A stretch of 24,849 nucleotides of DNA, from positions 250,694 to 275,542 of IMG/VR virus record IMGVR_UViG_3300035698_012504; one strand, written 5' to 3'. The DNA comes from a virus. Shown piece after piece: positions 1-20,600 of this stretch. The notes beneath the pieces were generated by a model that saw only the letters and a list, made by a program, of their open reading frames with translations, made no database searches and was not told where the DNA came from. The translations under genes were made by a program, and so were the position numbers. The first letter of the stretch is position 1. The number at the start of each line of letters is the position of its first letter.

Positions 1-184
1 CATGTGCCTTAGTGATTCTAAGCAATTTAAAAATAGATAAATCCATTTTTCTAAATATACCAGAGAACCACCCAGATACATCGACAATAAGTTTCTTTAA
101 TTGTCTAAGAGAATCTGCTACTCCTTCATCTAATACCATAGACTCCAAAGATTCAAGTTCTATAAAATGTTCTGAAATATACAT
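1..184 (-). CDS. Hypothetical protein, N-terminal part only; the gene continues past the left edge of the window
   Basis: A minus-strand frame is stop-free from nt 184 to nt 1, which is unusual in roughly 30% GC DNA. An ATG sits at 184-182 with a GGAG about 13 nt upstream. My hand translation begins MYISEHFIELESLESMVLDEGVADSLRQLKKLIVDVSGWFSGIFRKMDLSIFKLLRITKAH. The ORF track does not report it because it has no stop inside the window. Confidence 0.35.
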   Translation of the reverse strand, partial: MYISEHFIELESLESMVLDEGVADSLRQLKKLIVDVSGWFSGIFRKMDLSIFKLLRITKAH

Positions 185-224
185 TTATATGATACTACTC
201 CATGTTTAACAGTTTGTCCGCAAA

Positions 225-1298
225 TTATACTATTAAGAAATCGACTACCTTTTCTTTAGTTTCCTCGTTAGATAACATTCCTTCAAATACTTGTCTACAT
301 ATATCGGCATCAAATGCGGCATCATGTAAATTTTCTTGATTGAATTTAACATTATAATAATGAGCTGCCTCTAATAAGGTTGGTTTTTTATATTTAAAAT
401 TAGGGTGGAATTTATTAAGTGGTAATCTCATAACACTTGTATTGGTTCCACATGTACAAAATGAATATGTCCAATGCATCTTAGAGAACCTTCTATCAAA
501 CGTAGAGTTATGTGCTACAAAATGTTTTATACCTTTGCAATATTTTTCTATAGATGTTAAATCATTTCTATAAAATTCGGGATATGTTGCATCTCCTCTA
601 AATTCTGTAATGGTTTTATGAGTTAATCCATTTACAGCTACTGCTCTTGGATCATAACATCCTGACTCAGAATAGTAATATCTAATGTATGGTTCTACGT
701 CATCACAATCAACTACTTCCATCTTATCAAGATCTACAATTGCTCGTATAGCGCAGACAGATAATACATGATCTTTCTTCTCACTCACTCCTGTGGTCTC
801 GAAGTCTATAAATATAAGTGGAATAGATCCCCACGTCTTTATTTTATTAGCTTCTTCTTTAGCATAAGTATCACAGAGTTCGTTATACTTATTTCCTTTA
901 TGAGCCTCAACGTATTCTGCTAATACATTAAATTTCTTGAGGATCTCATTTATTTCTTTCCATAGATTTACATGAGCAATTTCTAATTTTTTACTATTCA
1001 TCCAACCATTACATGACCACTTCTGCAACCAACTATTTATAGAATTACAAACATATTTTGAGTCACTAAAAATCTTTACATTTGTTCCAGGTTCAAAGTT
1101 ATTATTAATATGTACTAATGAACTATAAGCAGCCATTACTTCCATTGCGCTATTTGTAGTATTCTCTTTATTACCTTTTAGTACTTCTAATTCTTTTCCA
1201 TCTTCTAAAACAACTGCTGCCCATCCTCCAGGAAATGTTCCTTTCTGATTATTACCTAAACATGAACCGTCAGTATATACAACTATCTCCTTACTCAT
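225..1298 (-). CDS. Fusion protein: N-terminal RNase HI domain plus C-terminal DnaQ/RNase-T-like DEDDh 3'-5' exonuclease
   Basis: The N-terminus matches RNase HI closely. '[23 protein letters not shown]' aligns with E. coli RnhA '[20 protein letters not shown]'. '[11 protein letters not shown]', '[18 protein letters not shown]' and '[18 protein letters not shown]' align with 'TTNNRMELMAA', 'STDSQYV..GITQWIHNW' and 'GHAGHPENERCDELARAA'. The C-terminus carries the exonuclease motifs: Exo I 'FIDFETTG', Exo II 'FVAHNSTFD' and Exo III '[14 protein letters not shown]' with the DEDDh histidine. Its stop overlaps the next gene by 8 nt. Confidence 0.85.
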   Translation of the reverse strand: [357 protein letters not shown]

Positions 1299-1779
1299 TG
1301 GAGCCCTTTCTAATCTTCGTAATTATCTCAGTAGTAGATATTCCTTCTACTCCAGAAAATAATAATATCTTACCACCATAATTTTCAACAATTTTTCTCT
1401 CTGTTTGAACTACTGTATCAATAGTATAATCGCCACCCTTCACATAATAATTTGGTTTCAATCCTCTTAGAACTTCGTCGAAATCTTTACCGTCCCAAAG
1501 AAGAATATAATCTACAAATTCTAATGATGAAAGAACTAGTGCTCTATCTTCCTGGTTCATTATCGGTCTACCAGGACCTTTATTTTTTACAACAGATTCA
1601 TCAGTATTGAGGCCGACTATAAGTACATCACCAGCGTTGGCTGCTCTCCTAAGGTACTTAATATGACCCGCATGCATTATATCAAAACATCCATTTGTCC
1701 AGACAGTAGTTAAATTTTTACATTTACATTCTTGAGAAATTATTTTCAAAGCATCAAATGATAAAGTCTTCAGTCTCAT
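1291..1779 (-). CDS. Cytidylyl/adenylyltransferase of the HIGH-motif family (RfaE domain II / HldE C-terminal type sugar-phosphate nucleotidyltransferase)
   Basis: The sequence 'TNGCFDIMHAGHIKYL' is the (T/H)xGH nucleotidyltransferase signature. It matches the GCFD(L/I)LHxGH motif of heptose-1-phosphate adenylyltransferase and glycerol-3-P cytidylyltransferase. The size (162 aa) fits this class, and the gene is translationally coupled to the one downstream. Confidence 0.7.
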   Translation of the reverse strand: MRLKTLSFDALKIISQECKCKNLTTVWTNGCFDIMHAGHIKYLRRAANAGDVLIVGLNTDESVVKNKGPGRPIMNQEDRALVLSSLEFVDYILLWDGKDFDEVLRGLKPNYYVKGGDYTIDTVVQTERKIVENYGGKILLFSGVEGISTTEIITKIRKGSNE

Positions 1780-1780
1780 T

Positions 1781-2050
1781 CTAATCCTCTCTAAATTGAG
1801 GTGGTCCAGTTCCTAGTGTCCGACCACTAATTTTATCTGCTATAATCGGAACCCTTGCAGTCATTCCATAATCATTGGGTTCTACTGGAGTACTAGTATT
1901 AATTTTATTGGTTACCTTCGTTGCAAAAGTTCCAAACACTTTCGATGTTTTTAAGCTTCCACAATTAGGGCATTTTTCTTTTGTCTTTCCCTTCTGTAAA
2001 GACTCCCAAGTATTGGTACACTCTTTACATTCAAAGGTAAATAATGGCAT
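1781..2050 (-). CDS. FmdB-family zinc-ribbon protein
   Basis: The N-terminus 'FECKECTNTWESLQK...KCPNCGS' fits the FmdB pattern CxxC...CPxCG. It is followed by a low-complexity tail. Confidence 0.6.
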   Translation of the reverse strand: MPLFTFECKECTNTWESLQKGKTKEKCPNCGSLKTSKVFGTFATKVTNKINTSTPVEPNDYGMTARVPIIADKISGRTLGTGPPQFRED

Positions 2051-2053
2051 AAT

Positions 2054-2446
2054 CTACTCCTTACTATTATAAACATCAGGGTCAAGATCTCTATTCCTAA
2101 GAATAGAAAAAATTATTTTCGGTATTGATGTGAGTTCCAGTTTAGGTACAAATATATCGACTACTTCAAACCCTTCTACATCCATATTAGGAACATCGTT
2201 ACCACTCATTAAAATTCCTACAGTAGTTGGGCTAAATCTTTTAATCTCCCTAATAAAATCTACACCATTCATTCCAGGCATTCTAAAATCTGAAATTACA
2301 ATATCATAAAACGGATGTAGAAGTGTTTCCCTTGGATCAGTTTTTACTTCTATTTCAATATTCTTCATGCTGCTCTCTAAGATATCAACAGCCAAATCTC
2401 TGATCATTTCATCATCGTCTATTAACAGAATCACTATTTTTTCCAT
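2054..2446 (-). CDS. Stand-alone response-regulator receiver domain (CheY-like), with no output domain
   Basis: It has 'ILLIDDDEMIRD' (the acidic pair), 'DIVISDFRMPGMNG' (the phospho-acceptor Asp), 'VGILMSGN' (the conserved Ser/Thr) and 'FVPKL' (the conserved Lys). The protein is 130 aa. A GGAG ribosome-binding site lies upstream at 2453-2458, read on the minus strand. Confidence 0.8.
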   Translation of the reverse strand: MEKIVILLIDDDEMIRDLAVDILESSMKNIEIEVKTDPRETLLHPFYDIVISDFRMPGMNGVDFIREIKRFSPTTVGILMSGNDVPNMDVEGFEVVDIFVPKLELTSIPKIIFSILRNRDLDPDVYNSKE

Positions 2447-2467
2447 AACAATATCTCCTTAATGTTT

Positions 2468-2493
2468 AGAAAAAAAAGGCATTGTGCCTTTTA
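2468..2493 (-). terminator. Rho-independent terminator between the Ro60 gene and the receiver gene
   Basis: Read on the minus strand the sequence is 'AAGGCA-caa-TGCCTT' followed by 7-8 T residues. The stem is 6 bp with a 3-nt loop. It starts immediately at the TAA stop of the Ro60 gene. Because it is flanked by an A-run upstream and a T-run downstream, it could act in both directions. Confidence 0.6.
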
Positions 2494-4110
2494 CGATTGC
2501 TGTGTTTCTATTTGGTTAGAAATGTCGATCATTTTTCTTGCGAACATCAGAACGCTGTGGCTCCAACCTCCAAGAATAAATGTTCTTCTGTAATACTCTG
2601 GAATTATTGTATCCTGATACCCAGCTGTCTGGACTAGGAATACATTAATATTAGGATTCACTTTTGTTCTATATCTATTTACAAGTTTGGGGACATCTAT
2701 ATATTGACCTGAGTTCGGGAATATGAAATCAGAGTAGGACGATTTATCTGATCCATACAATCCACCATGACCAGCTTGCATATCGGAATACACAAACAAG
2801 TTATCATAATGAATTTCCTTCTGAGTTATTTCATCTAAGGCCAACCAGATGCCATGCTCAGTACCGTGACCTATGCTCACGCCAATCTTATTAACTTCTT
2901 TTAGTTGATCAAATACAGAACTTCTTTTTCTTACATCATGGTATTTTAATCTATCCCCAAATACACCAATGACTCCTTCATCGGAAATCATTCCGGTAAG
3001 TATACCCATCATGTTTCCAATCTCCGCAACTGTTACTGATGAGTATTCTCCCGGTCCTGAGTCATAAGCACTACCAGAGTTATCGGTGAGTATTAGAGAT
3101 TTACCTGGAAGCTGAGGAAGCTCAGGCATTGATTTCATTAGACTATCTTCAAGTGCATCTAATATCTTAGCAGAACCAGTTGGATGTGCATTCTTTACTG
3201 CCATATATGCTGTCCAGTATCTAAATGGTAATAACATTCCACGTTCAGCAGATTTAGTCATCTTATCAACAATTAGATCCTGATCCACATCAGCAGTAAT
3301 TAAATTTCTAAGATTTTTAACTATTGCAAAGTGTCCCATAACGCCTAGACACTTATCCCAAGACTCACCTTTGGATCTTAATGCTTCCCAAGTTTCGTCA
3401 TTGAGTTTAAGTTCACCGCCTACTAAAGCACGGATATCATCGTTCCATTGAAAGTCAATCATATTAATAACATCAACAGTTTTGACTTCTCTTGATTCCA
3501 TTCTATATTTAGCAAGTTCATATTTCTTAGCTATTAGAAATCTATCTGCCCAAGATCTCTTAAGACTATTGGGTACAGGTTTTCCAAATGCTTTTAACTG
3601 ATATGCTAATTGAGTAGCTGGCTCGTCCATTCTCCTGAGAATTGAAGGAGCATACTTTCTTATTAGGCCAGTGCCTTTTACTTTTAAATGATTTGCAGCT
3701 CTTACCATTATTACTTGAGGAGTAACTCTTATCTTGTCTTCATTTCTAAGTGCAGCTGCAATATAAAGAGTTCCTTCTGGATCGAATGCTAATGCTTCAT
3801 CAATTGCTCGTTCCATCAATTCAGTTGGCTTAAGACTTCTCCAATCATATTTATCTATTGCATCTAAACTTTCTCTTAAATATTTTATTTGGGTGTCTGA
3901 TAATGTGGATGATTTTCTTGCTTCATCAAAACTTTTCTTTTTTCCAGAACCAGAGGAAGTGTAATACTTCGGTTCTCCAAAGAAACATGACGCAGCCATT
4001 GCTCTTAATCTTACTAGTGGAGTAATGTCAAAACTTGTTCCAGCCATAAAATTTTTGTGGGAATCTTTTCTCACTGCCGTCGACTTGGTCTTGTTAATCG
4101 TTGCCATCAA
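2491..4110 (-). CDS. rsr: Ro60/Rsr orthologue: TROVE domain plus von Willebrand A domain
   Basis: The length (539 aa) is close to human Ro60 (538 aa) and Deinococcus Rsr. 'RAMAASCFFGEPKYYTS' matches Ro60 'RFLCFGSEGGTYYI'. The vWA MIDAS motif 'LILTDNSGSA' lies near residue 335, matching Ro60 'LLAVDVSASM' near residue 375. The later vWA segments 'IGHGTEHG' and 'VFLVQTAG' correspond to 'PAGGTDCS' and 'VFIVFTDNET'. The start codon is TTG or ATG at 4110 or 4107, with an AAAGGA ribosome-binding site. Confidence 0.8.
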   Translation of the reverse strand: MMATINKTKSTAVRKDSHKNFMAGTSFDITPLVRLRAMAASCFFGEPKYYTSSGSGKKKSFDEARKSSTLSDTQIKYLRESLDAIDKYDWRSLKPTELMERAIDEALAFDPEGTLYIAAALRNEDKIRVTPQVIMVRAANHLKVKGTGLIRKYAPSILRRMDEPATQLAYQLKAFGKPVPNSLKRSWADRFLIAKKYELAKYRMESREVKTVDVINMIDFQWNDDIRALVGGELKLNDETWEALRSKGESWDKCLGVMGHFAIVKNLRNLITADVDQDLIVDKMTKSAERGMLLPFRYWTAYMAVKNAHPTGSAKILDALEDSLMKSMPELPQLPGKSLILTDNSGSAYDSGPGEYSSVTVAEIGNMMGILTGMISDEGVIGVFGDRLKYHDVRKRSSVFDQLKEVNKIGVSIGHGTEHGIWLALDEITQKEIHYDNLFVYSDMQAGHGGLYGSDKSSYSDFIFPNSGQYIDVPKLVNRYRTKVNPNINVFLVQTAGYQDTIIPEYYRRTFILGGWSHSVLMFARKMIDISNQIETQQS

Positions 4111-4565
4111 ACTATCCTTTCACGTCACTTCGGATCCACGGACCCGAACTTTAAAAATGGGGAGAATATCGCAAGGGCGATTTTTTCGCTTTTGATCCTT
4201 ATTCAAATGAAGTAACCCTTACATTCACTACCCCGAAAAATATATAAATAATATAAATTTAAGAAAAAACAGGAAAAGCTCGATCTGGTGTTGGTCTTCG
4301 CTGGCGCTCACTAGCCGATGGCTAGCAGCGTTCCAGCTCCATGAAGTAACCAAATCAATCACTACCTGTAAAAATCAACGCGAGATAAATAGCGACAGAG
4401 TATATGTTTCATTTTAAAGAAGTAACTCTATCTTTCACTACTCGCTAAAAACATTGGGAAAAAATCAACTAGGTGTTTGTTTCATTTAAAGGTGAAGTAA
4501 CCCAGTCATTCACTACCCAAAAAAAGATAAATCATCGTTCTCACTATTTAATATATATAGTATAT
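4111..4565. ncRNA. 455-bp non-coding locus with four direct repeats and a GC-rich hairpin; candidate structured RNA or RNAs, possibly Y-RNA-like, with strand unresolved
   Basis: No ORF of 60 aa or more is present. Four copies of the motif GAAGTAAC-N(6-8)-TCACTAC(C)-N(3-5)-AAAAA begin at 4209, 4343, 4419 and 4494. A roughly 60% GC imperfect hairpin sits at 4300-4337 in otherwise AT-rich DNA. The region lies directly upstream of the Ro60/TROVE gene. Read on the minus strand each repeat is TTTTT..GGTAGTGAAT..GGTTACTTCA. Confidence 0.4.
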
Positions 4566-5867
4566 CTAAACCTGGTAAACCCATTCATCATCTTCGAAAA
4601 TATTTTTTGTATCTATTATAATATCTGAGTATTCTTTTATAATACTATAATCCACATTATCATGATCAACTGCAATTATTACAGCATCAGATCGTTTACA
4701 TATTGTCTTGAGATCTTCTGATTCAAAACTATAATGTTTATCTACATAAGGATCATGATAAGTAATGTTAGCCCTTCTGAAAAGCAACTGTTCCAATATA
4801 GCAGTGCCGGTAGAGTTTCTAACGTCTCCCACATTCTTTTTGTAAGCCAATCCAATAATAGCAATGTTAGCTCCTTTCACAGGTTTGTCCGCAGAATCTA
4901 AAATCCATTTAATCTTGTCTATTAAAATATCTAATGATTTTTTATTGACGCCTGTACATGCGTCTATGATGGGGGTATCGACCCCATGTTTATTCGATTC
5001 ATATTTAAAATAATATGGATCTACTCCTATACATTCTCCGCCTATAGATGCAGTTGGATAGAATGGAGAAAATCCAAATGGTTTTGTACTTGCCAATTCT
5101 ATCACTTCTTTTAAACTAATTTCCATTTGATCGCAGAATTGTTTGACTTCATTCATAAAAGATATGTTTACAAATCTATACATATTTTCTAATAGCTTTG
5201 TTAGTTCTGCTACATGAGTTCCTGAAGCTTCTACTACTTCATCTACAATATTTAAATATAGTGCTTTTGCAATAGCAGTCGAAACTGGATCAACTCCCCC
5301 AACAATCTTTGGAGTATTTTCTAAAGTATATAATTTATTTCCTGGGTCTACTCGTTCAGGACTAAATGCAACATATCCTTCGAATCCTCTAGATCTTGTT
5401 GGGTTTAACTTGTCATCTTTAAAACGCCAGAAGTTTTTGTTTGTAAACCCAGGATACACTGTACTTTCTAATACAATTAAAAAATCAGACTTCCCATAAC
5501 TTACAATGTTATTATGAATAGTGTCAATCAATATTTCTAAGTTCTTTACTTCTGGTTTATTATTAATGGTTGGGGTTGGAACACATATGATTATACAATC
5601 ACAATCTACTAAGATTTTTTTCGGAGGCTTTTCCCAACATGTAAATAATTCCACACCGTGATTTAAAATATCTAGTTCTTCATCACTTATATAACTTATA
5701 TCACACTTACCCGATTTAAGTTTTTTAATCTTTCTTTCATCTACATCAAATCCCCTGACTCTGAATCCTGCCTTTGCGAATTTAAGGGCCAACGGCAAAC
5801 CTACGTAGCCAAGTCCAATTATACCAATTTTAGCTTTCTTGGTTTCTATTTTTTCTAATAATTCCAT
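4566..5867 (-). CDS. Nucleotide-sugar dehydrogenase (UDP-glucose/GDP-mannose dehydrogenase family, WbpA/WecC-like UDP-N-acetyl-hexosamine dehydrogenase)
   Basis: It has an N-terminal Rossmann motif 'KIGIIGLGYVGLPLA'. The catalytic-cysteine motif 'IGGECIGVDPYYF' matches the 'GGHCIPVDPYY' of the WbpA/WecC branch. The C-terminal domain contains 'IIGLAYKKNVGDVRNS'. The protein is 433 aa. Confidence 0.85.
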   Translation of the reverse strand: MELLEKIETKKAKIGIIGLGYVGLPLALKFAKAGFRVRGFDVDERKIKKLKSGKCDISYISDEELDILNHGVELFTCWEKPPKKILVDCDCIIICVPTPTINNKPEVKNLEILIDTIHNNIVSYGKSDFLIVLESTVYPGFTNKNFWRFKDDKLNPTRSRGFEGYVAFSPERVDPGNKLYTLENTPKIVGGVDPVSTAIAKALYLNIVDEVVEASGTHVAELTKLLENMYRFVNISFMNEVKQFCDQMEISLKEVIELASTKPFGFSPFYPTASIGGECIGVDPYYFKYESNKHGVDTPIIDACTGVNKKSLDILIDKIKWILDSADKPVKGANIAIIGLAYKKNVGDVRNSTGTAILEQLLFRRANITYHDPYVDKHYSFESEDLKTICKRSDAVIIAVDHDNVDYSIIKEYSDIIIDTKNIFEDDEWVYQV

Positions 5868-6243: not shown

Positions 6244-7710
6244 TTATGCACCAGTATCGGAATCTGTAATGGTTAGTGCAGCCAATCCTTCAGGTCTTAT
6301 TACCTTAACCGCATAACGACTTAGGATTGTAAGTGATGGATTGTTACCAAGAGGATAAGGAATTAAGAGTGCTGGTACGTAAGGGGCATACACGCAAACC
6401 GCTTTCATCATTTCTGGGCTTCTGTGTTTCATAATTACTGTACCCTGAGGAACAATACTAGAAACAAGAATCTTCCATTTACCTGAAGATACTGTAGCTG
6501 AACGGTATCCGACATCTCCACCGGCAACACTATCGCCAACATATTCGAAGCCGTTAAGGGATTCAAATACTGCTGCATCAAGTGGGTTACATGCTAATGT
6601 ATTAGCAGGACCGATAAGAGAGGTGTTATACACCTGTGCGGAAAGCTTATTCAGTGTTGGAATAATATTTTCATACCATGCCTTACGACCCCATGTGAAT
6701 CCAGTTGGAGGATTCAGATCAAATGAGTCAGTATGGCTAGATGGGTTGTTGGAACTATTAGCAGTAATAAGCGTACTAATTAGTTGGTTATCAATGTCAA
6801 GAGCAATCTGCTCACCTATGATATTTACAAGCTCACTTTGAAGCTTAATATCATAAAGAGCCTGAATGTCTTGTTCCATATTCACTGTCCATTCTGCAGA
6901 GATTCGTCTGTCTACGACTTTGAATCTTATCTTTTCAACGTCGAACTTGACAGTCGGGTTAATTGTGTTTTCTTCTAGAGACGCATATCCCTGGAAGCCT
7001 ATTTCAGCTACTTCGCCTGTCGCTGAACTCCAGGTCAGTAGACCGTTTAAGTAATCAACATGACCACTTACGGTATCTGGACCTGCATTTGTGGTAACGT
7101 CAAAAGAGAAATTACCGTCGACATCGGCTTGCCAATCAACGGCAACGTATCCACCAGTTTGATCATAAATACCGGTGATTTTGAAATCTTTTTCAAGGTG
7201 TGAGTCAGTGCTATCCAGTGAGACCTCAGCTAGCACATCGTGATTTTGACCCTCAGTTGCTGTAGCAGCTACGCTGATACCAATAGAAGGACCACGAGAG
7301 ATATCTGTGGAGGTTGAAGGGAATGCATGATCATAGCCACTATCAACGTGACGTTTGAATGAAGGTCTTATAAATCCTTTGATTACATCGGGCTTATCAA
7401 TAGGCATTACATTAACTAATTCTTTCGCGACTAGTTTCGGATAGAATACGCGAAGTATAGGTAGTGTCATTGTCTCATATGGATTCAGTTGGAACATGCT
7501 GTTTTCCATCAGGTTTAGACGAGTATTCTCGGCTAATTGACTGAAGTCATCAGCTTGGTCCGTAGGTAGACCTTCGGCTAGGTTCTTTGCATAGTACTTA
7601 AAGCTCTCTGGGCTTGCAAGCATCTGACGGAAACCTTGAGGCGAACGTACGTCTAGACCAGTGTTGCGTTTTGTAGCATTATATGTTTCTTGTAGTAAAT
7701 GTTGCATCAT
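6244..7710 (-). CDS. Major capsid protein, T4 gp23-like
   Basis: 'VCVYAPYVPAL' matches T4 gp23 'GIYYAPYVALT'. 'AEWTVNMEQDIQALYDIKLQSELVNIIGEQIALDIDNQLI' matches gp23 'AAYSIELAQDLRAVHGMDADAELSGILATEIMLEINREVV'. The C-terminal 'VKVIRPEG' matches 'RRVYVKGI'. The protein is 488 aa. Confidence 0.8.
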   Translation of the reverse strand: MMQHLLQETYNATKRNTGLDVRSPQGFRQMLASPESFKYYAKNLAEGLPTDQADDFSQLAENTRLNLMENSMFQLNPYETMTLPILRVFYPKLVAKELVNVMPIDKPDVIKGFIRPSFKRHVDSGYDHAFPSTSTDISRGPSIGISVAATATEGQNHDVLAEVSLDSTDSHLEKDFKITGIYDQTGGYVAVDWQADVDGNFSFDVTTNAGPDTVSGHVDYLNGLLTWSSATGEVAEIGFQGYASLEENTINPTVKFDVEKIRFKVVDRRISAEWTVNMEQDIQALYDIKLQSELVNIIGEQIALDIDNQLISTLITANSSNNPSSHTDSFDLNPPTGFTWGRKAWYENIIPTLNKLSAQVYNTSLIGPANTLACNPLDAAVFESLNGFEYVGDSVAGGDVGYRSATVSSGKWKILVSSIVPQGTVIMKHRSPEMMKAVCVYAPYVPALLIPYPLGNNPSLTILSRYAVKVIRPEGLAALTITDSDTGA

Positions 7711-8466: not shown

Positions 8467-9885
8467 CTATGAGATACTAGGAGTATATGCTAATCTAAAT
8501 CCTGTTAAAGACCCGATTGAGGCGTCTGTTCTAACCAAACGTAAATTAAAGAACCCAGTCTCATTTCTAGGTATCTTCCAATATCCTCCTCTTGTAGGCC
8601 TGATCGACCCTCTATAAACACTAGTATGGCCATAACTATGTCCATTTAAATCTCTACACCAAGAAGGATCAATTAAAGCTTGTTGTAATAAATATTTATC
8701 TGATTGTGGGACATTACTATCATCATCATATGCTGCCGTAGTTGGCATATCTGTCCATTCACATCGTTTACTACCATTTATAGTATATAAATTTGAAGAA
8801 ACATCTAATTGTGGAGTATATGCTCCGCCTTTATTATATGCCGCAGAAGATATTATGTCTGTTCCAGCAGCGGCAGAAATAGTAGATGTTTTATTATATC
8901 TTGGTATAAATAATTGCCCATTATTAACAGCAAACCCGTTAATCCATTCTTCTTTATTTCCAATTGCATCTGCTATACCTGTAACTTCTCCATTATGTGT
9001 CCAACTTAATGGGCCACTACCAGTGTAGGTTGTACCATCTCCAGATTCTGTTCCAGGTACTAATCCATCAACTCTTACTCCTGACTGATAATTATAATTT
9101 GGACTTATATTATCACCGGCGAAATTTGGATCATATCTTCCATACCATGTATTTCCACCTGGATTATGTCCAGAAGCTAGACCATCAAATACCATAGCTG
9201 ACCATTCCCAATTCGTCATCATATGCCATCCAACTCCTTTATTAGAAGCTGCCGCAGCGGAATCTAAATAAGAAATTCCTGAAGTAGGATTGAATCCAGG
9301 CATAGAGAAATAAGAATTTCCTTCTGATGCAGATATAAACTGACCTATAAATATTTCATCATGGTAATCAAAAGTACCATCTGATGCTTTATATTTAAAT
9401 GCAGGGTGATAACCACTACCACAATAATTAGTAGACTTAATTAAATATTCCTGATTGGGATAAGAGGTAAATGTTCCCTCGTCTATCCCTTGTATTGCTA
9501 AATCTATCAGGTATACATAATCATCAGTTACTGAATCTACCTGATACCTATTCGGAGTTGGCATCACAGAGTAAAGAGTATTTGTAGCACCTACTGATGG
9601 TTCGGGAGGAACATAATGAACATAATCTCCCTCCTCTATTGGACGAATACCATCTGATTTAATTCTATTATCTATTTGGAAATTAATTATTCCTAATGGA
9701 TGTATTTCATCGGCATAATAATCAAGGATAGGTATTTTGTTAAAATTTTTATCCTCTACTTCAAATCTATTCAATATATACATATATGACGGCACACCAT
9801 TGGTGTCATATAAAACTGTTATCTTACCACCAGTCAATGATTCGACTGAAGATCTTAATCCATCTTTTACAAAAATATTAGGCAT
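8467..9885 (-). CDS. Paralogue A of a duplicated structural or carbohydrate-binding protein carrying FGE/SUMF1-like (C-type-lectin-fold) signature motifs
   Basis: It shares many blocks with ORF 9916..11415: 'TVLYD..G.PS.MY', 'GYHPAFKYK' with 'GIHPAFICG', 'EIFIGQF' with 'EIFVGQF', 'GWHMMTNWEWSAMVF' with 'GWHAMNLWEWSAIAF', and 'YTGSGPLSWTHNGEVTGIADAIGNKEEWINGF' with 'YTGSGPKSFRHNNDFTGISDIVSPNGEFIGGIF'. The 'T.NWEWSA' and 'GNKEEW' blocks resemble the FGE motifs 'PTEAEWEYAA' and 'GNVWEW'. Confidence 0.55.
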   Translation of the reverse strand: MPNIFVKDGLRSSVESLTGGKITVLYDTNGVPSYMYILNRFEVEDKNFNKIPILDYYADEIHPLGIINFQIDNRIKSDGIRPIEEGDYVHYVPPEPSVGATNTLYSVMPTPNRYQVDSVTDDYVYLIDLAIQGIDEGTFTSYPNQEYLIKSTNYCGSGYHPAFKYKASDGTFDYHDEIFIGQFISASEGNSYFSMPGFNPTSGISYLDSAAAASNKGVGWHMMTNWEWSAMVFDGLASGHNPGGNTWYGRYDPNFAGDNISPNYNYQSGVRVDGLVPGTESGDGTTYTGSGPLSWTHNGEVTGIADAIGNKEEWINGFAVNNGQLFIPRYNKTSTISAAAGTDIISSAAYNKGGAYTPQLDVSSNLYTINGSKRCEWTDMPTTAAYDDDSNVPQSDKYLLQQALIDPSWCRDLNGHSYGHTSVYRGSIRPTRGGYWKIPRNETGFFNLRLVRTDASIGSLTGFRLAYTPSIS

Positions 9886-9915: not shown

Positions 9916-11415
9916 TTACGGTATAAATGCAACTCGTGGTGCTTCCAAATTGTCATATTTTCTTACATTAAATCCAAAAGGCCCACCAACATTATCCGCA
10001 GTTCCAGAACCGGTAGATGAATCTCCTACACCTCTTTGCATGAAGTAAAAGGTTGAATCGCCTGCTGCTGTAGCTAGTTCGTCGGATGGGAATCCGCCAG
10101 TAATAACTGCTTCTTTTGCTGTTTGATTTGCAGTCGATACAGCTCTCCATATACCTCCACTAGCCATTAAGGAAAGTCTCATAAGTCTAACTAAATCATC
10201 ATAATTAGAATCTGCTAATGATTCTGCATGAAAATCAAGCGTTGAACTAGGAGGATATTGGTTCCATGAACTTGAATGAGCCAATCCACTATAGTCGGAT
10301 GCCAACCCATCAGATGTTCCTATTATATCACAGATCCCACCAGCAGATGGTTCTTTAAATGATAACCATCCATTTCCACCACCACCAACCCCATCCTGAG
10401 TCCACTCTAATGTATTGGCTGCACTAGTAATTCCATATTTTCTTTCGGCTTCAAAACTATTAAAAGAATTAAATCGAATCTGTCCAGAGTGAATAAAAAT
10501 CCCACCTATAAACTCTCCGTTTGGAGACACGATATCAGAGATTCCGGTAAAATCATTATTATGACGGAAACTTTTTGGACCAGATCCTGTATAGTAATCA
10601 TTTGATGTAAGATTATATGCTGGGGTTACAGTCTCATATGGGTAACTCGCATTTGGACTTCTAACCGATCTATCTATACCCAAATATCTATTATCTCCAT
10701 AATCATATGAAGATGATGTACCTATACCTCTAACAGTTGTTTCATTTGATAAAATTTGAAAAGCAATTGCTGACCATTCCCACAGATTCATAGCATGCCA
10801 ACCAGGACCTTTTACAATCATTGACTGTCTTATATAATCATAATCATATCCAACTTGATCCTGTACAAGTGTACGTGGAAGAGAATGAAAAGTATTATTG
10901 ATTATAGACGATCTAAACTGTCCTACAAATATTTCTGATTTATATCCAGGGCTATATGTCTCGTGGGGACCACATATAAATGCTGGATGGATTCCATGAC
11001 CCATTAATCCCTGTATCCACATTCCAGTCTCATTTATATCACCCCATGCGATTGCTGCTACTGGATTTGTCTGAATTCTAAATGTATTAACATCTGGTAC
11101 AGAACTAACTACAACATCTTGACCATGCCAATCTGATGATGGTCTTTCCCCGACTATTGTTATTACATCGCCAGCGGTTAATCCATGAGCAGTATATACT
11201 ATTTCTCTAGTATTAACATCAGGACTACCACTAGCGGTGACACTTGTAAATGGTATATACATCGCAGTAGGATCGACTGATATAATATCAAATCTAGGGA
11301 TTACATACATTTGAGAAGGTATTCCTGCTGCATCATATAAAACTGTATTTTGTCCACCACTAGCACCTTCTACTGCTAATCTATATGGATCTTTAATTAA
11401 AATATTAAAGCTCAT
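9916..11415 (-). CDS. Paralogue B of the same family as 8467..9885
   Basis: See paralogue A. This copy is 499 aa and has a Gly-rich insert ('VGGGGNGW'). It overlaps the upstream gene by 11 nt. Confidence 0.55.
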   Translation of the reverse strand: MSFNILIKDPYRLAVEGASGGQNTVLYDAAGIPSQMYVIPRFDIISVDPTAMYIPFTSVTASGSPDVNTREIVYTAHGLTAGDVITIVGERPSSDWHGQDVVVSSVPDVNTFRIQTNPVAAIAWGDINETGMWIQGLMGHGIHPAFICGPHETYSPGYKSEIFVGQFRSSIINNTFHSLPRTLVQDQVGYDYDYIRQSMIVKGPGWHAMNLWEWSAIAFQILSNETTVRGIGTSSSYDYGDNRYLGIDRSVRSPNASYPYETVTPAYNLTSNDYYTGSGPKSFRHNNDFTGISDIVSPNGEFIGGIFIHSGQIRFNSFNSFEAERKYGITSAANTLEWTQDGVGGGGNGWLSFKEPSAGGICDIIGTSDGLASDYSGLAHSSSWNQYPPSSTLDFHAESLADSNYDDLVRLMRLSLMASGGIWRAVSTANQTAKEAVITGGFPSDELATAAGDSTFYFMQRGVGDSSTGSGTADNVGGPFGFNVRKYDNLEAPRVAFIP

Positions 11416-15002: not shown

Positions 15003-15893
15003 TTACATAACTCCTTCTAATTTTAAAGAATTAATATATTTTAAAAATTCTTCTTGCTTATATTTACCACTTTTTTTCTTATTATCCATCTCAGTTAAAA
15101 ATTGTAAATTACTTTCACCATTTATAATATCTAAATCATAAATGTTATTTTCAACAAATGCTTTTATTGGAAAAATATGATCAATATGAATTTTTAAATT
15201 ATTTATATTATATTTCTTTCTGAATTTTCTTTTATATGATGAACTTAAAGAATGAATTCTTTTAATCGACCTTATTTTACTTCTATCTGGATTCCAATTA
15301 GAACTGTTTTCTCCGGAAAGTTTATCTATTTTACAATAAATACATCGTTGGCCCCTTTTAAAATTACTAAAAGTAATTTTTGATGTATTTCCGCAATTGC
15401 ACTTATATTTTAAAGGAATTTCACATGTAATATATTTATCTAATAAAACACAATCTCTTTCTTTAAAATAACTATTCACCTCTTCTTGAGAGTATCTATG
15501 ACTATTCGCTCTTCGTTTTATTCCACATTTTTTACATCTACTTCCTTCCTTAAAACGACCAAGAACTGTACTAGAAATATTTCCACAAACACACCTATAC
15601 TTTACAGGACTATTATTATTCTTATATTTGTCCAGTAATTTACATCCTTCTTTTTTAAATATATATTCAACCTCTTTTTGAGAATGTTTCTTTTTACTAG
15701 ATCTTTTCTTTATTCCACAGCTCATACATCGCTTACCTTCTCTAAAATGATAAAGAGAAATCTTAGACTCATTCCCACAAATACATCTATACTTCATAGG
15801 AATATCACAATTATTATATTCTTCTGCTAAAAGTTCACAACCTTCCTTCTTAAATATTTCTCTAACTGTTTCTAACGTATATTTCCTATTCAT
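15003..15893 (-). CDS. Free-standing HNH endonuclease with three tandem zinc-ribbon repeats (homing-endonuclease-like)
   Basis: It contains three repeats of about 48 aa of the form 'F.KEGC.LL..Y.N...P.KY.C.CGN.S......F..G.RC..CG'. The C-terminal HNH core is 'KIHIDHIFPIKAF...NGESNLQFL'. An AGGAAAT ribosome-binding site is present. The gene is inserted between the prohead protease gene and the structural genes. Confidence 0.7.
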   Translation of the reverse strand: MNRKYTLETVREIFKKEGCELLAEEYNNCDIPMKYRCICGNESKISLYHFREGKRCMSCGIKKRSSKKKHSQKEVEYIFKKEGCKLLDKYKNNNSPVKYRCVCGNISSTVLGRFKEGSRCKKCGIKRRANSHRYSQEEVNSYFKERDCVLLDKYITCEIPLKYKCNCGNTSKITFSNFKRGQRCIYCKIDKLSGENSSNWNPDRSKIRSIKRIHSLSSSYKRKFRKKYNINNLKIHIDHIFPIKAFVENNIYDLDIINGESNLQFLTEMDNKKKSGKYKQEEFLKYINSLKLEGVM

Positions 15894-17682: not shown

Positions 17683-20600
17683 TTAAAATCCACCGCCACC
17701 ACCCATGCCACCAGGTGCTTCCTCGCCTTCATCTTTACCTTCAATCTTATCTTGAAGCTTCTGAGCTCTCTCAAATTTATCAATTTCTTCCCAAGGAAGG
17801 TTAAGATATTTCTTACATAACCATTCTTTATTAACTCCAAGTTCTTCTAATATTTGAACAATAGATTGTATTTGTTGAAAGTGCTCACCTTCCCGTTCTA
17901 TTTGAAGTAGCTTAGGAGGTGAAAATGTAACTAAAATTCCTACTGGTAATTTTTCATTTCTTATATATTTATATAATTTAGAGAACAAGCTCATTATATT
18001 TCGTGTAAGCATTTGTTGATACGCTACAATAGTTCTGGCAAATACATCATTTTCATGTGCAAGTGCAGCTTTATTACTATTATGAATAAATATACCAGCC
18101 GAAACTGCAAAGTTATGGTATGTCTCTACTCTGATATCACCACAATCGATTTTATATGATAATTTTTCAACTTTAACTACTTTATGGTTTAATATCAGTT
18201 CTTTTACTTCTCTCTTTCTAGTAAATATTTCACTTCTCTGTTGTGCTGTAGAAACTGCCCGATACTTATTTAAACAATTAGGATTATAACAAATAGTCTT
18301 ATATTGTTTTTCTTCCCAAGTGCCAAATCTTGAAGCCTCGGTGTAAACATAAAGATTTTCACATACTTCACAATATCTATATTCTATATTAGACCATAGA
18401 CGTCCTTTAAGTTTAGTCATTGATATGTTAGCTTTTCTAACCATCTTAGCACAATAATTATCATCGCAATTATACCATTTATATGGTTGCTCTTCTAATT
18501 GTTTCTTTAATTTTTTTGTTAACGTCTTAGTAAATTGCTTGCCACAATGAGAACATGACATAGTTATTTCTGGAAACTTTTTATCATAATCAATTTTACG
18601 AGAATCCCATGATAAACGACCTGTTTGTTGATGTCTTATTTTTCTACAAGCAGACGAACACGTCGTTTGAACTGTATCAGATCTATTAGTAAATGTTTTA
18701 CCACATATTTCACACGTTCTTTCCTCATATGAAGTACCAGGTACAGACAGTTCGAATAATTTTTTACGATTTTCTTGTAATTTTGTAAGTTCTTCTTTTG
18801 AAAATAACTTTGTACGGGCATGTAATGCAAGATGATCTCCAGCGGATAAACCCACTAAATTTTTAGTAGAATTGTTCAATGGATTCATATCTATATGATG
18901 ACAATGCTCATTACTAACAGCCATCTTTGTATAATGACTAAATGATCTATGCATCCAATCCCAAACATCTATTCCCGGATGATAAACATAATTATATTTA
19001 GTAGCTTTTTCTTTATTTCTACTTTTAATATAAGGTTTCATTTTCTTATAAAACGGCATTAAAGAATCACCTGGTTGTAAAGAACCAGCTTCAACATATT
19101 CACCACTTCTTTTCATCATTTTATGTTCAGGAGTAATTATTAAAAATTCACCATTATCTAATGTTATCTTAACAGCATCTACATCAAATTGAGTATATCC
19201 GGCCCATGTGACTTTATTCGGAAATACAACCCCCAAATCTTCATCATAAGAAATAACTTCAAATTCTTCACCTTTTTCAAATCTATCTATCATTTCTTTA
19301 AGGAGGATTTTCTTTCCATTAGTCAATTCGATGTAAGTCGTTGATACACAAGAAGATAGATTCTCCTCGAGGTTCATATATGCGGGAGGCACGTCTAAAC
19401 TAGACACTAACATATCCCTGAAAAACTTTAATTCATCTGTAACATCTCTGATGTTAGTTGGTGATTCTATTCTATCAAACTGAATTGCAGGTTCACCACC
19501 CCTTGGTCTTGGTATATAATATTCTTCATAAGATGTTATCATTGAAGGTATTGAAGAAATATTTCCCCAACTATCCACACTATGCTTTCTCTTCTTAGTC
19601 TTCTCTTGGAAGTCGGCAATAATATTTCTTACTTGTCTATCGGGAGAGGCATCAACGATAATCATCCTTTTATCACTAGAGTCAGATACTCTCTTAATAG
19701 TAACAGCTACTTCTAATGCTATCAATAACTTAGCCTGCCACATTGATTTGTAGAATATACTTTCTCCGTATGGGAAGAATCTCTTATTATAAATACAAAA
19801 ATGCTCCATCCGTTCAGGCGGAACATATCTTACTATTAACTTCTGATCATCTGTATTTTTTATCTCAGCCATTGCTCTGTTAATCAAAGTAACTAATTCT
19901 TTCTTATCTACTTTAGCATCCTTGGCAACATTTACACGACCTATATACTTAGAGACTGCTTTCATTATTTCTGCATATACTTTTTCTACTCCCGATAGAT
20001 TAGTATTTCTTGGATCATATCCAGTAATTTTCTTATTTAGATTCTGATTTGTTTTCATGGTCGCCCCAGACGAACTATTACTATTAATAGGAATAACTAA
20101 ATATCCTAAACACATTTTAAATCGTCTGGATTGTATCTTTATAACAGCTCTAGAATCGTGTACTATTAGTTTAATCTCTTCTAAAGCAGATTCTAGATTT
20201 GGTTTATCACTTGTAGGATTATCTTCATCTTTTTTCTTTTTTCTTACAGCTTCATCTATTACTACAACTGGCTCTATAGTTTTAGTATAGGCTTCACCAT
20301 TTTCATTAAGATATTCTATGTCTACTGATTCTAGAGTCATAACAGCATCTTCTGGCAATCCTTGCCTATCTGCTTCTGTAAGAATAACTTGAGTAACTGG
20401 TACCTCTTTAGATTTGTAACTAGCAAATTCTACGAACTGATCTCCGTACGATAAAGTATTACTTATTATATCATGTATCTCACCTTCTAAACCTAGATGG
20501 TCAGATATTGCTCTTATATCGCCTATTTTACTTTTATCTTTTTCTGATAGATCTTTTCCTCCAGTGATGTTGATGACCTCTTTCGAAACATCATCGGGGG

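What the first reader, a model, noticed from the sequence alone, without database searches (positions are those of the whole stretch)
225..1298. Fused RNase HI / DEDDh 3'-5' exonuclease
A single 357-aa polypeptide combines a textbook RNase HI domain with a complete DnaQ/RNase-T-like exonuclease domain. Every catalytic motif of both domains is intact. T4 itself uses a FEN-type 'RNase H' and keeps proofreading in the polymerase, so this architecture is atypical for the lineage. It could remove RNA primers or R-loops and resect the 3' end in one enzyme. Alternatively it could act on RNA together with the nearby Ro60 orthologue.
Basis: partly seen in the sequence, partly recalled or inferred. Interest (0 to 1): 0.55.

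Follow-up and report, generated by a model that had tools for sequence, protein, structure and literature searches.

The report
Phage RNase HI fused to exonuclease
A T4-like phage from a metagenome encodes one protein that joins an RNA:DNA-hybrid-cutting enzyme (RNase HI) to a 3'-5' exonuclease; the fusion is real and rare in phages, the same domain pairing is already common in one bacterial family, and its role in the phage is still only inferred.

Summary
Window 225-1298 (minus strand) is one uninterrupted 357-aa gene. It has a canonical RNase HI domain (Pfam 1e-32, all five catalytic residues) and, 8-10 residues later, a DEDDh 3'-5' exonuclease domain (Pfam 3e-11, DEDDh residues intact). 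AlphaFold gives pLDDT 94.6.

Only two other protein clusters in the searched libraries share this fusion family. Both come from syntenic T4-like phages. In one of them the RNase H active site is completely lost while the exonuclease is intact.

No cultured phage (INPHARED) matched across both domains, and one IMG/VR pattern scan found no relative.

The domain pairing itself is not new. RNase HI-DNA polymerase III epsilon fusions are widespread and annotated in Acinetobacter, Psychrobacter and Moraxella.

The phage fusion looks independent of those. Its exonuclease is not a DnaQ or RNase T orthologue. It belongs to an uncharacterised DEDDh clade found alone, membrane-anchored near defence genes, or fused to Zorya ZorD and a type IV restriction enzyme.

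The most likely role is a dual nuclease acting on RNA:DNA hybrids and 3' ends in phage DNA metabolism. This is inferred, not shown. The link to Ro60 is weak. Interest is moderate.

The parts
225..1298 (-). Complete gene for the 357-aa RNase HI-DEDDh exonuclease fusion (ATG at 1298-1296, TAA at 227-225)
   Evidence: The identical protein P0001 was read on 5 contigs.
849..1292 (-). RNase HI domain, residues 3-150. Catalytic codons: D10 (1269-1271), E53 (1140-1142), D79 (1062-1064), H133 (900-902), D143 (870-872). An E. coli-type basic protrusion is present.
   Evidence: Pfam PF00075 at 1.2e-32. Alignment to E. coli RNase HI. Foldseek TM 0.80-0.91 normalised to target length, rmsd about 2 A, against E. 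coli and Chlorobium RNase HI. Codons.
816..848 (-). Very short interdomain linker, residues 151-161. It holds the end of the last RNase H helix and then leads straight into the first exonuclease strand.
   Evidence: Secondary structure in the AlphaFold model: helix 137-152, strand 158-168. pLDDT dips only to about 79.
228..815 (-). DEDDh 3'-5' exonuclease domain, residues 162-357. Catalytic codons: D165 (804-806), E167 (798-800), D268 (495-497), H325 (324-326), D330 (309-311). Clade-specific motifs: SVCAIR, RYYY, FCT, KxPxL and a C-terminal FL.
   Evidence: Pfam PF00929 at 3.2e-11. Alignment to Pol III epsilon. Clade alignment. Domain model with pLDDT 95.1 and pTM 0.90. Foldseek TM 0.6-0.68 to RNase T, DinG exonuclease, epsilon, ExoX and TREX2.
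1291..1779 (-). Upstream gene in the same operon: a cytidylyltransferase-like protein (RfaE domain II-like). It overlaps the fusion gene by 8 nt and is absent at this position in the two related phages.
1781..2050 (-). Zn_ribbon_8 small protein. Its gene is the immediate upstream neighbour of the fusion gene in both related phages, abutting it with no gap.
   Evidence: Pfam 1.4e-10. Synteny in L003-L006 and L008.
2054..2446 (-). Stand-alone response-regulator receiver-domain protein, likely the first gene of the transcription unit that ends with the fusion gene
   Evidence: Pfam 1.7e-13. Terminator-like hairpin just upstream at 2474-2492 on the minus strand. Conserved in L003-L006.

Best explanation
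The gene encodes a genuine single-chain, two-active-site nuclease.

The N-terminal domain is a canonical E. coli-type RNase HI. It should bind RNA:DNA hybrids and nick their RNA strand. After a linker of only about 8-10 residues comes a DEDDh two-metal 3'-5' exonuclease, which should trim 3' ends exposed at or near the hybrid.

The most likely setting is phage DNA metabolism: clearing or processing primers and R-loops, and editing 3' ends of replication or recombination intermediates. The exonuclease appears to be the constant activity. The RNase H domain acts as a hybrid-targeting module that also cleaves in this phage.

Shown: the architecture, the intact catalytic residues, the confident fold, the conservation, and the independent origin from bacterial RNase HI-epsilon fusions. 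Inferred: the substrates (DNA versus RNA 3' ends), the coupling of the two activities, and the biological role.
For: - Domains and motifs.
- Fold: the full-length model has pLDDT 94.6 and pTM 0.75, with a short structured linker. The N-terminal domain superposes on E. coli RNase HI. The exonuclease domain is a standard DEDDh fold.
- Conservation: P0002 is 50% identical and collinear, and keeps all ten catalytic residues. P0012 is 31-33% identical. It has lost all five RNase H catalytic residues and the basic protrusion, but keeps the full DEDDh set. This marks the exonuclease as the indispensable part.
- DNA-side context of the exonuclease clade: stand-alone members sit in a viral replication module beside an HTH_36 protein and a DnaC/IstB-like loader. 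Other members are fused to a Zorya ZorD SNF2 helicase, where the PADLOC profile has its Mrr-like nuclease, and to a type IV restriction enzyme.
- Recurrent pairing of RNase HI with a DEDDh exonuclease: hundreds of Moraxellaceae proteins named 'ribonuclease HI/DNA polymerase III subunit epsilon'.
- T4 uses origin R-loops to start replication (review PMC12599619).
- In the related phage L003 a DNA ligase gene lies about 5 kb upstream in the same gene run.
Against: - No biochemical data exist for any member of this exonuclease clade. DEDDh enzymes include both DNases and RNases, and the fold matches do not discriminate: RNase T, epsilon, ExoX and TREX2 all score TM about 0.6-0.68.
- The gene lies among head, structural and auxiliary-metabolism genes, not in a recognisable replication module.
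- The rest of the roughly 152-kb genome was not seen. It is therefore unknown whether the phage also has a FEN-type RNase H and a proofreading polymerase.
- The dead RNase H domain in P0012 shows that hybrid cleavage is dispensable in at least one lineage.
Confidence: 0.55

Rival explanations
1. The protein is an RNA-surveillance partner of the phage Ro60. The exonuclease domain would be a 3'-5' exoribonuclease that works with the nearby TROVE/Ro60 protein and the four Y-RNA-like modules. This would be analogous to the bacterial Ro60-Y RNA-PNPase (RYPER) machine.
For: - A TROVE/Ro60-like gene lies three genes upstream (phrog_850 at 2.4e-38). Its Pfam TROVE match is weak.
- Four tandem structured modules (GTAGTGA-N8-GTTACTTC) lie just 5' of that gene, and two are conserved in the relative.
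- The order TROVE, receiver domain, Zn-ribbon, fusion is conserved in two phages.
- Bacterial and phage Ro60 proteins cooperate with 3'-5' exoribonucleases (PMC12135203).
Against: - A terminator-like hairpin directly follows the TROVE stop codon.
- The third phage (L008) has the order capsid gene, Zn-ribbon, fusion, with no TROVE gene on its contig.
- An RNase HI domain has no obvious role in Ro60 biology.
- The exonuclease clade's other contexts are DNA-directed: a ZorD fusion, a type IV restriction enzyme fusion and a replication module.
- The synteny may simply reflect common descent of three related phages.
Confidence: 0.15
2. The protein is a host-takeover or counter-defence nuclease. It would destroy host nucleic acids for nucleotide salvage, or destroy RNA-DNA or ssDNA products of reverse-transcriptase-based defences such as retron msDNA or DRT cDNA.
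For: - The exonuclease clade is patchily spread across Fusobacteria, Spirochaetes, Clostridia and even archaeal MAGs.
- Members lie near AbiU2 and SocA/Panacea genes and near WYL, helicase and HNH genes.
- The clade is used as the nuclease module of ZorD and of a type IV restriction fusion.
- A hybrid-specific endonuclease plus a 3'-5' exonuclease is, on paper, suited to degrade msDNA-like molecules. This last point is inference.
Against: - No known anti-defence protein family was matched. PADLOC gave only the generic DEDDh profile.
- No defence trigger or target is identifiable.
- The RNase H active site is lost in one lineage.
- The idea is entirely circumstantial.
Confidence: 0.15
3. The protein is a replisome proofreading subunit, like the Moraxellaceae RNase HI-epsilon fusion. 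The exonuclease would dock on a polymerase and edit misincorporations while RNase HI travels with the fork.
For: - It has the same domain order as the Moraxellaceae proteins.
- PHROG 192 is labelled 'DNA polymerase exonuclease subunit'.
- The best sequence-level PDB matches are PolC and epsilon exonuclease domains.
Against: - It fails every DnaQ model by a wide margin: 29.5 bits against a 222.7 cutoff, and 26.3 against 196.
- The protein ends right after the exonuclease domain. The region after epsilon's exonuclease domain, which binds the polymerase alpha subunit (established knowledge), has no counterpart here; the bacterial fusion P0158 matches the full-length epsilon model to position 232 of 234.
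- T4-like phages use a family B polymerase with built-in proofreading (established knowledge).
- Its nearest relatives are membrane-anchored or defence-fused exonucleases, not replisome subunits.
Confidence: 0.1
4. The fusion is an artefact: two adjacent genes (rnh and an exonuclease gene) merged by an assembly or sequencing error.
For: None was found.
Against: - The same uninterrupted ORF was read on 5 contigs for P0001 (two shown) and on 6 contigs for the orthologue P0002 (four shown). P0012 is also collinear.
- No start-like codon precedes the Exo I motif.
- The linker is structured and short.
Confidence: 0.01

Closest known systems
Moraxellaceae RNase HI-DNA polymerase III epsilon fusion (Acinetobacter, Psychrobacter, Moraxella 'DnaQ', about 460-680 aa; the related fusion P0158, 396 aa, from an unidentified metagenomic contig with transporter genes)
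   Same: It has an N-terminal RNase HI and a C-terminal DEDDh exonuclease in one chain, and both active sites are intact. Sources annotate it as 'ribonuclease HI/DNA polymerase-3 subunit epsilon'.
   Different: - In the bacterial proteins the exonuclease is a true epsilon orthologue. P0158 scores 266.9 bits against a 196 cutoff, over the full-length model.
- They have a linker of about 30 residues or more and are cellular.
- The phage exonuclease scores far below all DnaQ cutoffs, has no counterpart to the post-exonuclease part of epsilon, has an 8-10-residue linker, and belongs to another DEDDh clade.
- The fusion events therefore look independent.
E. coli RNase HI (rnhA; PDB 2RN2, 1RNH and related entries)
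   Same: The N-terminal domain is 33-35% identical over about 150 residues. All five catalytic residues and the basic protrusion are present. Target-normalised TM is 0.8-0.9.
   Different: It scores below the NCBIfam equivalog cutoff (127 against 160) and carries a covalently attached exonuclease.
Stand-alone and membrane-anchored DEDDh exonucleases of the 'FFDTETNG...RYYY...FCTM...KWPKL' clade (uncharacterised; one member is named 'DNA polymerase-3 subunit epsilon' by JGI)
   Same: These are the closest relatives of the C-terminal domain: 35-38% identity and phmmer E values of 1e-30 to 1e-38, with the same clade-specific motifs.
   Different: - They lack any RNase H domain, and none lies within 4-5 kb.
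- Many carry an N-terminal hydrophobic segment that looks like a transmembrane helix by eye.
- Some are fused to ZorD or to HEAT repeats plus a type IV restriction enzyme.
T4 RNase H (rnh, FEN-family 5'-3' exonuclease) and the T4 gp43 proofreading domain
   Same: In T4 these are the functional counterparts for primer removal and 3'-5' editing (established knowledge).
   Different: The folds and families are unrelated. No FEN/5'-3' exonuclease family appears among the Pfam, PHROG or NCBIfam hits.
Jumbo-phage 'ribonuclease H' of about 490-530 aa (e.g. Pseudomonas phage Noxifer gp169, phrog_3265)
   Same: It is a phage protein with an RNase HI-type domain plus a large extra C-terminal region. It appeared in the BFVD fold search and as phrog_3265.
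   Different: The C-terminal region has no DEDDh signature and no similarity to the query's exonuclease domain.

Membership tests
RNase HI (Pfam PF00075; type 1 RNase H) | Domain-model match above the curated threshold | tested here: met
   113.4 bits against a 25.8 cutoff, residues 3-150 covering profile positions 2-140 of 141
RNase HI (Pfam PF00075; type 1 RNase H) | Catalytic DEDD carboxylates plus the histidine (E. coli D10, E48, D70, H124, D134) | tested here: met
   D10, E53, D79, H133 and D143 align to the E. coli residues
RNase HI (Pfam PF00075; type 1 RNase H) | RNase H fold including the E. coli-type basic protrusion | tested here: met
   Foldseek target-normalised TM 0.80-0.91, rmsd 1.7-2.5 A. 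The protrusion segment [15 protein letters not shown] aligns without a gap
RNase HI (Pfam PF00075; type 1 RNase H) | NCBIfam equivalog score for bacterial rnhA (NF001236) | tested here: not met
   127.2 bits against a cutoff of 160. It is a divergent member, not an rnhA equivalog.
RNase HI (Pfam PF00075; type 1 RNase H) | Cleavage of the RNA strand of RNA:DNA hybrids | not testable with these tools
   Requires an enzyme assay
DEDDh (DnaQ-like) 3'-5' exonuclease superfamily (Pfam PF00929) | Domain-model match above the curated threshold | tested here: met
   44.5 bits against a 24 cutoff, residues 162-338 covering profile positions 1-164 of 164. PADLOC DEDDh profile at 1.7e-17.
DEDDh (DnaQ-like) 3'-5' exonuclease superfamily (Pfam PF00929) | Exo I (DxE), Exo II (D) and Exo III (H-x4-D) motifs | tested here: met
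   D165/E167, D268 and H325/D330 align to epsilon D12/E14, D103 and H162/D167
DEDDh (DnaQ-like) 3'-5' exonuclease superfamily (Pfam PF00929) | DEDDh fold | tested here: met
   Domain model with pLDDT 95.1. Foldseek probability 1.00 and TM 0.6-0.68 to RNase T, DinG exonuclease, epsilon, ExoX and TREX2.
DNA polymerase III epsilon (DnaQ orthologues; TIGR01406, NF004316) | Equivalog model score | tested here: not met
   29.5 bits against 222.7, and 26.3 against 196
DNA polymerase III epsilon (DnaQ orthologues; TIGR01406, NF004316) | C-terminal segment after the exonuclease domain that binds the polymerase alpha subunit | tested here: not met
   The protein ends at residue 357, directly after the last exonuclease-domain helices. 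The bacterial fusion P0158 matches the full-length epsilon model to position 232 of 234.
RNase T (TIGR01298) | Equivalog model score | tested here: not met
   22.9 bits against 246.2. The structural similarity is only at superfamily level.
Moraxellaceae-type RNase HI-epsilon fusion | N-terminal RNase HI followed by a C-terminal DEDDh domain in one chain | tested here: met
Moraxellaceae-type RNase HI-epsilon fusion | The exonuclease domain is orthologous to epsilon, implying common descent of the fusion | tested here: not met
   The phage exonuclease half does not detect P0158 in a domain-wise phmmer search at E 1e-3. Its nearest relatives are a different clade.
T4-type RNase H (FEN / 5'-3' exonuclease family) | PIN-like 5'-3' exonuclease domain | tested here: not met
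   No such family appears among the Pfam, PHROG or NCBIfam hits

The most novel reading that the evidence does not exclude
The fusion could be the dedicated nuclease arm of a phage-encoded nucleic-acid surveillance or counter-defence module. One version has it working with the phage Ro60 and the four upstream Y-RNA-like modules, as a self-contained RYPER-like machine with its own exonuclease. The other version has it as an anti-defence enzyme that dismantles RNA-DNA hybrid or ssDNA products of reverse-transcriptase-based immunity. In either case the exonuclease domain would have been captured from a clade that bacteria themselves use as a defence effector, as in the ZorD-DEDDh fusion.
Probability: 0.12. 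Interest if true: 0.7.

Novelty: new variant of a known kind. Interest (0 to 1): 0.35.

Why it matters
If the two activities are coupled, this would be a compact enzyme that recognises RNA:DNA hybrids and then resects a 3' end. That could be useful as a reagent. It would also inform how T4-like phages that lack a close T4 gene set handle primers and R-loops.

It is a second, independent example of RNase HI joined to a DEDDh exonuclease, after the Moraxellaceae RNase HI-epsilon proteins. This strengthens the case that the two activities cooperate.

It also draws attention to an uncharacterised DEDDh clade that bacteria deploy as membrane-anchored proteins near defence genes and as the nuclease module of a Zorya ZorD variant. 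Characterising the phage enzyme would give a first handle on that clade.

As it stands, this is a well-supported annotation and a modest curiosity, not a discovery of a new kind of system.

Tried and rejected
1. Near-identical DNA in cultured phages: megablast of window 1-5000 found nothing.
2. tblastn hits that seemed to run past the RNase H domain (Clostridium phages CS266P1-4, Erwinia phage Joad). The annotation and local HMM searches show ordinary stand-alone RNase H genes followed by unrelated small genes, with no exonuclease.
3. Proteins with '2 stretches' in the representative search looked like further fusions. They are tandem RNase H-RNase H duplications, not RNase H-exonuclease proteins.
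4. Jumbo-phage 'ribonuclease H' proteins of about 500 aa from the BFVD fold search. Noxifer gp169 has RNase H plus an unrelated C-terminal region.
5. IMG/VR scan with the three-member fusion alignment: no relative found. A scan with the exonuclease-clade alignment found only stand-alone exonucleases with no RNase H within 4 kb.
6. Genome scan of 185,579 species with the exonuclease clade: 14 clear members, and none with RNase H nearby. The first attempt failed for lack of a conserved stretch.
7. Rfam searches for a Y RNA or any other RNA near the Ro60 gene: nothing at gathering thresholds, and only chance-level hits at E up to 5. No tRNAs were found.
8. Literature on the Acinetobacter RNase HI-epsilon fusion: I recall it being noted in a 2010 MMBR review of Acinetobacter replication, but I could not find or open it in the held library. 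That point therefore rests on the database names.
9. Fold and profile searches to assign the exonuclease to a characterised DEDDh subfamily. All candidates score alike, so no assignment is possible.
Full report
**Observation**

The ORF list shows a 357-codon frame at 225..1298 on the minus strand. It starts at an ATG that overlaps the stop codon of the upstream gene by 8 nt (ATGAGTAA), and it ends at a TAA.

Pfam places RNase_H on residues 3-150 (E 1.2e-32) and RNase_T, the DEDDh exonuclease model, on residues 162-338 (E 3.2e-11). Both are above their curated cutoffs and both cover the models end to end. PHROGs gives phrog_531 'Rnase H' and phrog_192 'DNA polymerase exonuclease subunit'. NCBIfam puts ribonuclease HI first, followed by a series of weak DnaQ, PolC and RNase T hits.

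Residue-level alignments to E. coli RNase HI and to Pol III epsilon identify all the catalytic residues:
- RNase HI: D10, E53, D79, H133, D143.
- Exonuclease: D165/E167, D268, H325/D330.

I confirmed these codon by codon.

**One gene, not two**

- There is no start-like codon between residues 101 and 170. The first one, GTG171, lies after the Exo I motif, so the exonuclease cannot be made intact on its own.
- The identical protein (P0001) was read on five contigs, two of them shown. A 50%-identical, fully collinear orthologue (P0002) was read on six contigs, four of them shown.
- AlphaFold2 with a 52-sequence alignment gives mean pLDDT 94.6 and pTM 0.75. The last RNase H helix (137-152) runs almost directly into the first exonuclease strand (158-168).
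- The window is 30-39% G+C, so long open frames do not arise by chance.

**What each half is**

The N-terminal half is an E. coli-type RNase HI. It is 33-35% identical to the solved enzymes, with target-normalised TM 0.8-0.9 and rmsd about 2 A, and it includes the basic protrusion. It falls below NCBI's rnhA equivalog cutoff (127 against 160), so it is a divergent member rather than a recent host copy.

The C-terminal half is a DEDDh exonuclease but not an orthologue of any characterised one:
- It scores 29.5 bits against a cutoff of 222.7 for proteobacterial DnaQ, and 22.9 against 246.2 for RNase T.
- A profile of its clade hits PolC exonuclease, epsilon, RNase T and ExoX about equally weakly, at 1e-7 to 1e-5.
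- A confident domain model (pLDDT 95.1, pTM 0.90) matches RNase T, S. aureus DinG exonuclease, epsilon, the S. thermophilus CRISPR-linked DnaQ domain, ExoX and TREX2, all at TM 0.6-0.68.

Substrate preference, DNA or RNA, cannot be read from this.

**The exonuclease clade**

An exhaustive HMMER search of 1.84 billion representatives, followed by domain-wise analysis, shows that the nearest relatives (E 1e-30 to 1e-38 for the exonuclease half) form a distinct clade. Its shared motifs are FFDTETNGL, SVLSISAIK, RYYY, HFVAHNIxFD, FCTM, KWPKL, LHDSxYD and a C-terminal FL.

Members of the clade fall into several types:
- Many are proteins of about 200-280 aa with an N-terminal hydrophobic segment that looks like a transmembrane helix by eye; no predictor was run.
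- One lies beside HEPN_AbiU2 and SocA/Panacea genes. Another lies among helicase, WYL and HNH genes on contigs of 28-115 kb.
- One is the C-terminal module of a Zorya ZorD SNF2 helicase. It matches ZorD profile positions 15-996 of 1171, and the DEDDh domain occupies the place where PADLOC describes an Mrr-like nuclease. Another is joined to HEAT repeats and a type IV restriction enzyme.
- In IMG/VR the clade occurs as stand-alone genes. One is next to an HTH_36 protein, a DnaC/IstB-like loader and an HNHc_6 nuclease, which is a temperate-phage replication module.
- In genomes it is patchily scattered over Fusobacteria, Spirochaetes, Paraclostridium, Marinamargulisbacteria and others.

None of these loci has an RNase H gene within 4-5 kb. 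These contexts lean toward DNA as the substrate and toward mobile-element or defence biology. None has been characterised.

**How common the fusion is**

Only three protein clusters carry this particular fusion: P0001 (the window), P0002 and P0012. All three are in related T4-like phages with a Gp23-type capsid protein and S77-type prohead protease. In the two relatives the gene directly abuts a Zn_ribbon_8 gene. In the window a cytidylyltransferase-like gene has been inserted between the two.

P0012 is informative. Its N-terminal domain is still recognisably RNase H-derived (E 2e-6 against a local RNase H profile). However, all five catalytic residues and the basic protrusion are gone, while the DEDDh residues are intact. 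The exonuclease is the conserved activity, and the RNase H domain can persist as a non-catalytic module.

No cultured phage in INPHARED has a match covering both domains. There are 0 records at 80% coverage or more, and the best exonuclease-only hit is 26% identical. One IMG/VR pattern scan found no relative of the fusion.

Apparent exceptions were checked and rejected:
- Read-through alignments in Clostridium phages and Erwinia phage Joad.
- Tandem RNase H-RNase H proteins.
- The jumbo-phage 'ribonuclease' of about 490 aa.

**The pairing of domains is not new**

RNase HI alone is common in phages. It matches 1,914 INPHARED records, including T5 and ICP1.

A protein with both domains from an unidentified metagenomic contig that also carries transporter genes (P0158) passes NCBI's equivalog cutoffs for both ribonuclease HI and DNA polymerase III epsilon. 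Searching with it returns thousands of hits. All of the best 120 carry both Pfam domains, and most come from Acinetobacter, Psychrobacter and Moraxella. Some are named 'ribonuclease HI/DNA polymerase-3 subunit epsilon' by their sources.

From general knowledge, rnhA and dnaQ are also adjacent and divergently transcribed in E. coli.

The phage fusion differs in three ways. It uses another exonuclease clade, it has no counterpart to the post-exonuclease part of epsilon, and its linker is 8-10 residues rather than 30 or more. Its exonuclease half does not detect P0158 in a domain-wise search. I therefore read it as an independent, convergent fusion: a new variant of a known kind.

**Mechanism (inferred)**

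RNase HI nicks the RNA of RNA:DNA hybrids, leaving 3'-OH ends. A DEDDh domain held a few residues away could then digest a 3' end at the same site. That end could be the nicked RNA, or a DNA 3' end at a primer, R-loop or recombination intermediate.

T4 starts replication from origin R-loops (PMC12599619), and T4-like phages must remove primers. The related phage L003 has a DNA ligase gene a few kilobases upstream. I put about 0.55 on 'coupled hybrid-directed endonuclease plus 3'-5' exonuclease acting in phage DNA metabolism'.

Against this:
- The gene is not in a visible replication module. Its neighbours are head, structural and sugar-nucleotide genes, a receiver domain and the Zn-ribbon gene.
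- The rest of the genome was not seen.
- P0012 shows that hybrid cleavage is dispensable.

**Rivals**

- Ro60 partnership. The TROVE-like gene is three genes upstream. It is preceded by four copies of a structured module, GTAGTGA-N8-GTTACTTC. These occur only in that intergenic region, where 0.02 copies are expected by chance. Two copies are conserved upstream of the TROVE gene in the relative. Thermus phage phiLo has two Y-like RNAs in the same position, and its Ro60 recruits a 3'-5' exoribonuclease (PMC12135203). Against this, a terminator-like hairpin follows the TROVE stop codon, the L008 phage has the fusion with no TROVE gene on its contig, and RNase HI has no evident role in Ro60 biology. 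I give this 0.15.
- Host-takeover or counter-defence. This rests only on the exonuclease clade's defence associations. I give it 0.15.
- A replisome proofreader like the Moraxellaceae protein. This is contradicted by the failed DnaQ membership tests. I give it 0.1.
- An assembly artefact is essentially excluded.

**Verdict**

It is rare among phages and appears to be a lineage-specific invention, but it combines two very common domains in a pairing already annotated in many bacteria. Its function is still only inferred. Interest is moderate (0.35).

The adjacent Y-RNA-like repeat array and the uncharacterised DEDDh clade, including its use in a ZorD variant, may be the more rewarding follow-ups.

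Noticed in passing
window 4111-4565, minus strand (motif copies at 4494-4516, 4419-4441, 4343-4365, 4209-4231); also L003 and L005 at 7327-7346 and 7426-7445: There are four tandem structured modules just 5' of the TROVE/Ro60-like gene. Each has an outer GGG...CCC stem, the conserved motif GUAGUGA-N8-GUUACUUC, a variable arm with its complement, and a U-run. The motif occurs 4 times where 0.02 are expected, and nowhere else in the window. The region folds with z = -3.3. Two copies are conserved upstream of the TROVE gene in the related phage. There is no Rfam match. These are candidate phage Y-RNA-like partners of Ro60, as described for Thermus phage phiLo.
   Followed up: partly
window 2474-2492, minus strand: A terminator-like hairpin (AAAAGGCACAATGCCTTTT followed by a T-run) lies immediately after the TROVE stop codon. 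It suggests that the receiver-domain, Zn-ribbon, cytidylyltransferase and fusion genes form a separate transcription unit.
   Followed up: no
L008 6271-7293 (protein P0012): This orthologue of the fusion, in a third T4-like phage, has lost all five RNase H catalytic residues and the basic protrusion while its DEDDh exonuclease is intact. It is a pseudo-RNase H domain retained next to an active exonuclease.
   Followed up: partly
proteins P0031 (1216 aa) and P0065 (823 aa), from the representative search: P0031 is a Zorya ZorD-like SNF2 helicase whose C-terminal nuclease position is occupied by a DEDDh exonuclease of the same clade as the phage domain. P0065 joins a DEDDh domain to HEAT repeats and a type IV restriction enzyme. 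The clade seems to serve as an interchangeable defence effector module.
   Followed up: partly
proteins P0003, P0021/P0160, P0022, P0035, P0087, P0114, P0128 and others; loci L009-L015: Many members of this exonuclease clade carry an N-terminal hydrophobic segment that looks like a transmembrane helix by eye. They sit near AbiU2/SocA-Panacea genes or near helicase, WYL and HNH genes. A membrane-anchored DEDDh exonuclease of unknown role is unusual.
   Followed up: partly
proteins P0011, P0014-P0018, P0017 and others, from the representative search: Many proteins of about 310-340 aa consist of two tandem RNase HI domains. In P0011 the first copy seems to lack the YTDG motif, judged by eye only.
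   Followed up: no
window 17683-20973, minus strand (1096 aa): This large ORF matches a virion structural protein (phrog_3004, residues 300-538) and also carries an HNH endonuclease match at residues 680-795. It may be a homing endonuclease or intein-like insertion in a structural gene.
   Followed up: no
window 15003-15893, minus strand (296 aa): A free-standing HNH endonuclease gene (phrog_559, 3.5e-24) sits next to the head maturation protease gene. It is probably a homing endonuclease.
   Followed up: no
window 8467-9885 and 9916-11415, minus strand: Two adjacent paralogous genes (472 and 499 aa) both match phrog_2889, of unknown function, downstream of the major capsid gene.
   Followed up: no
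window 1291-1779, 2054-2446 and 4566-5867, minus strand: Auxiliary genes are interleaved with the head genes: a heptose-type cytidylyltransferase, a stand-alone response-regulator receiver domain and a UDP-glucose dehydrogenase. The cytidylyltransferase is present only in this phage, between the Zn-ribbon and fusion genes.
   Followed up: no
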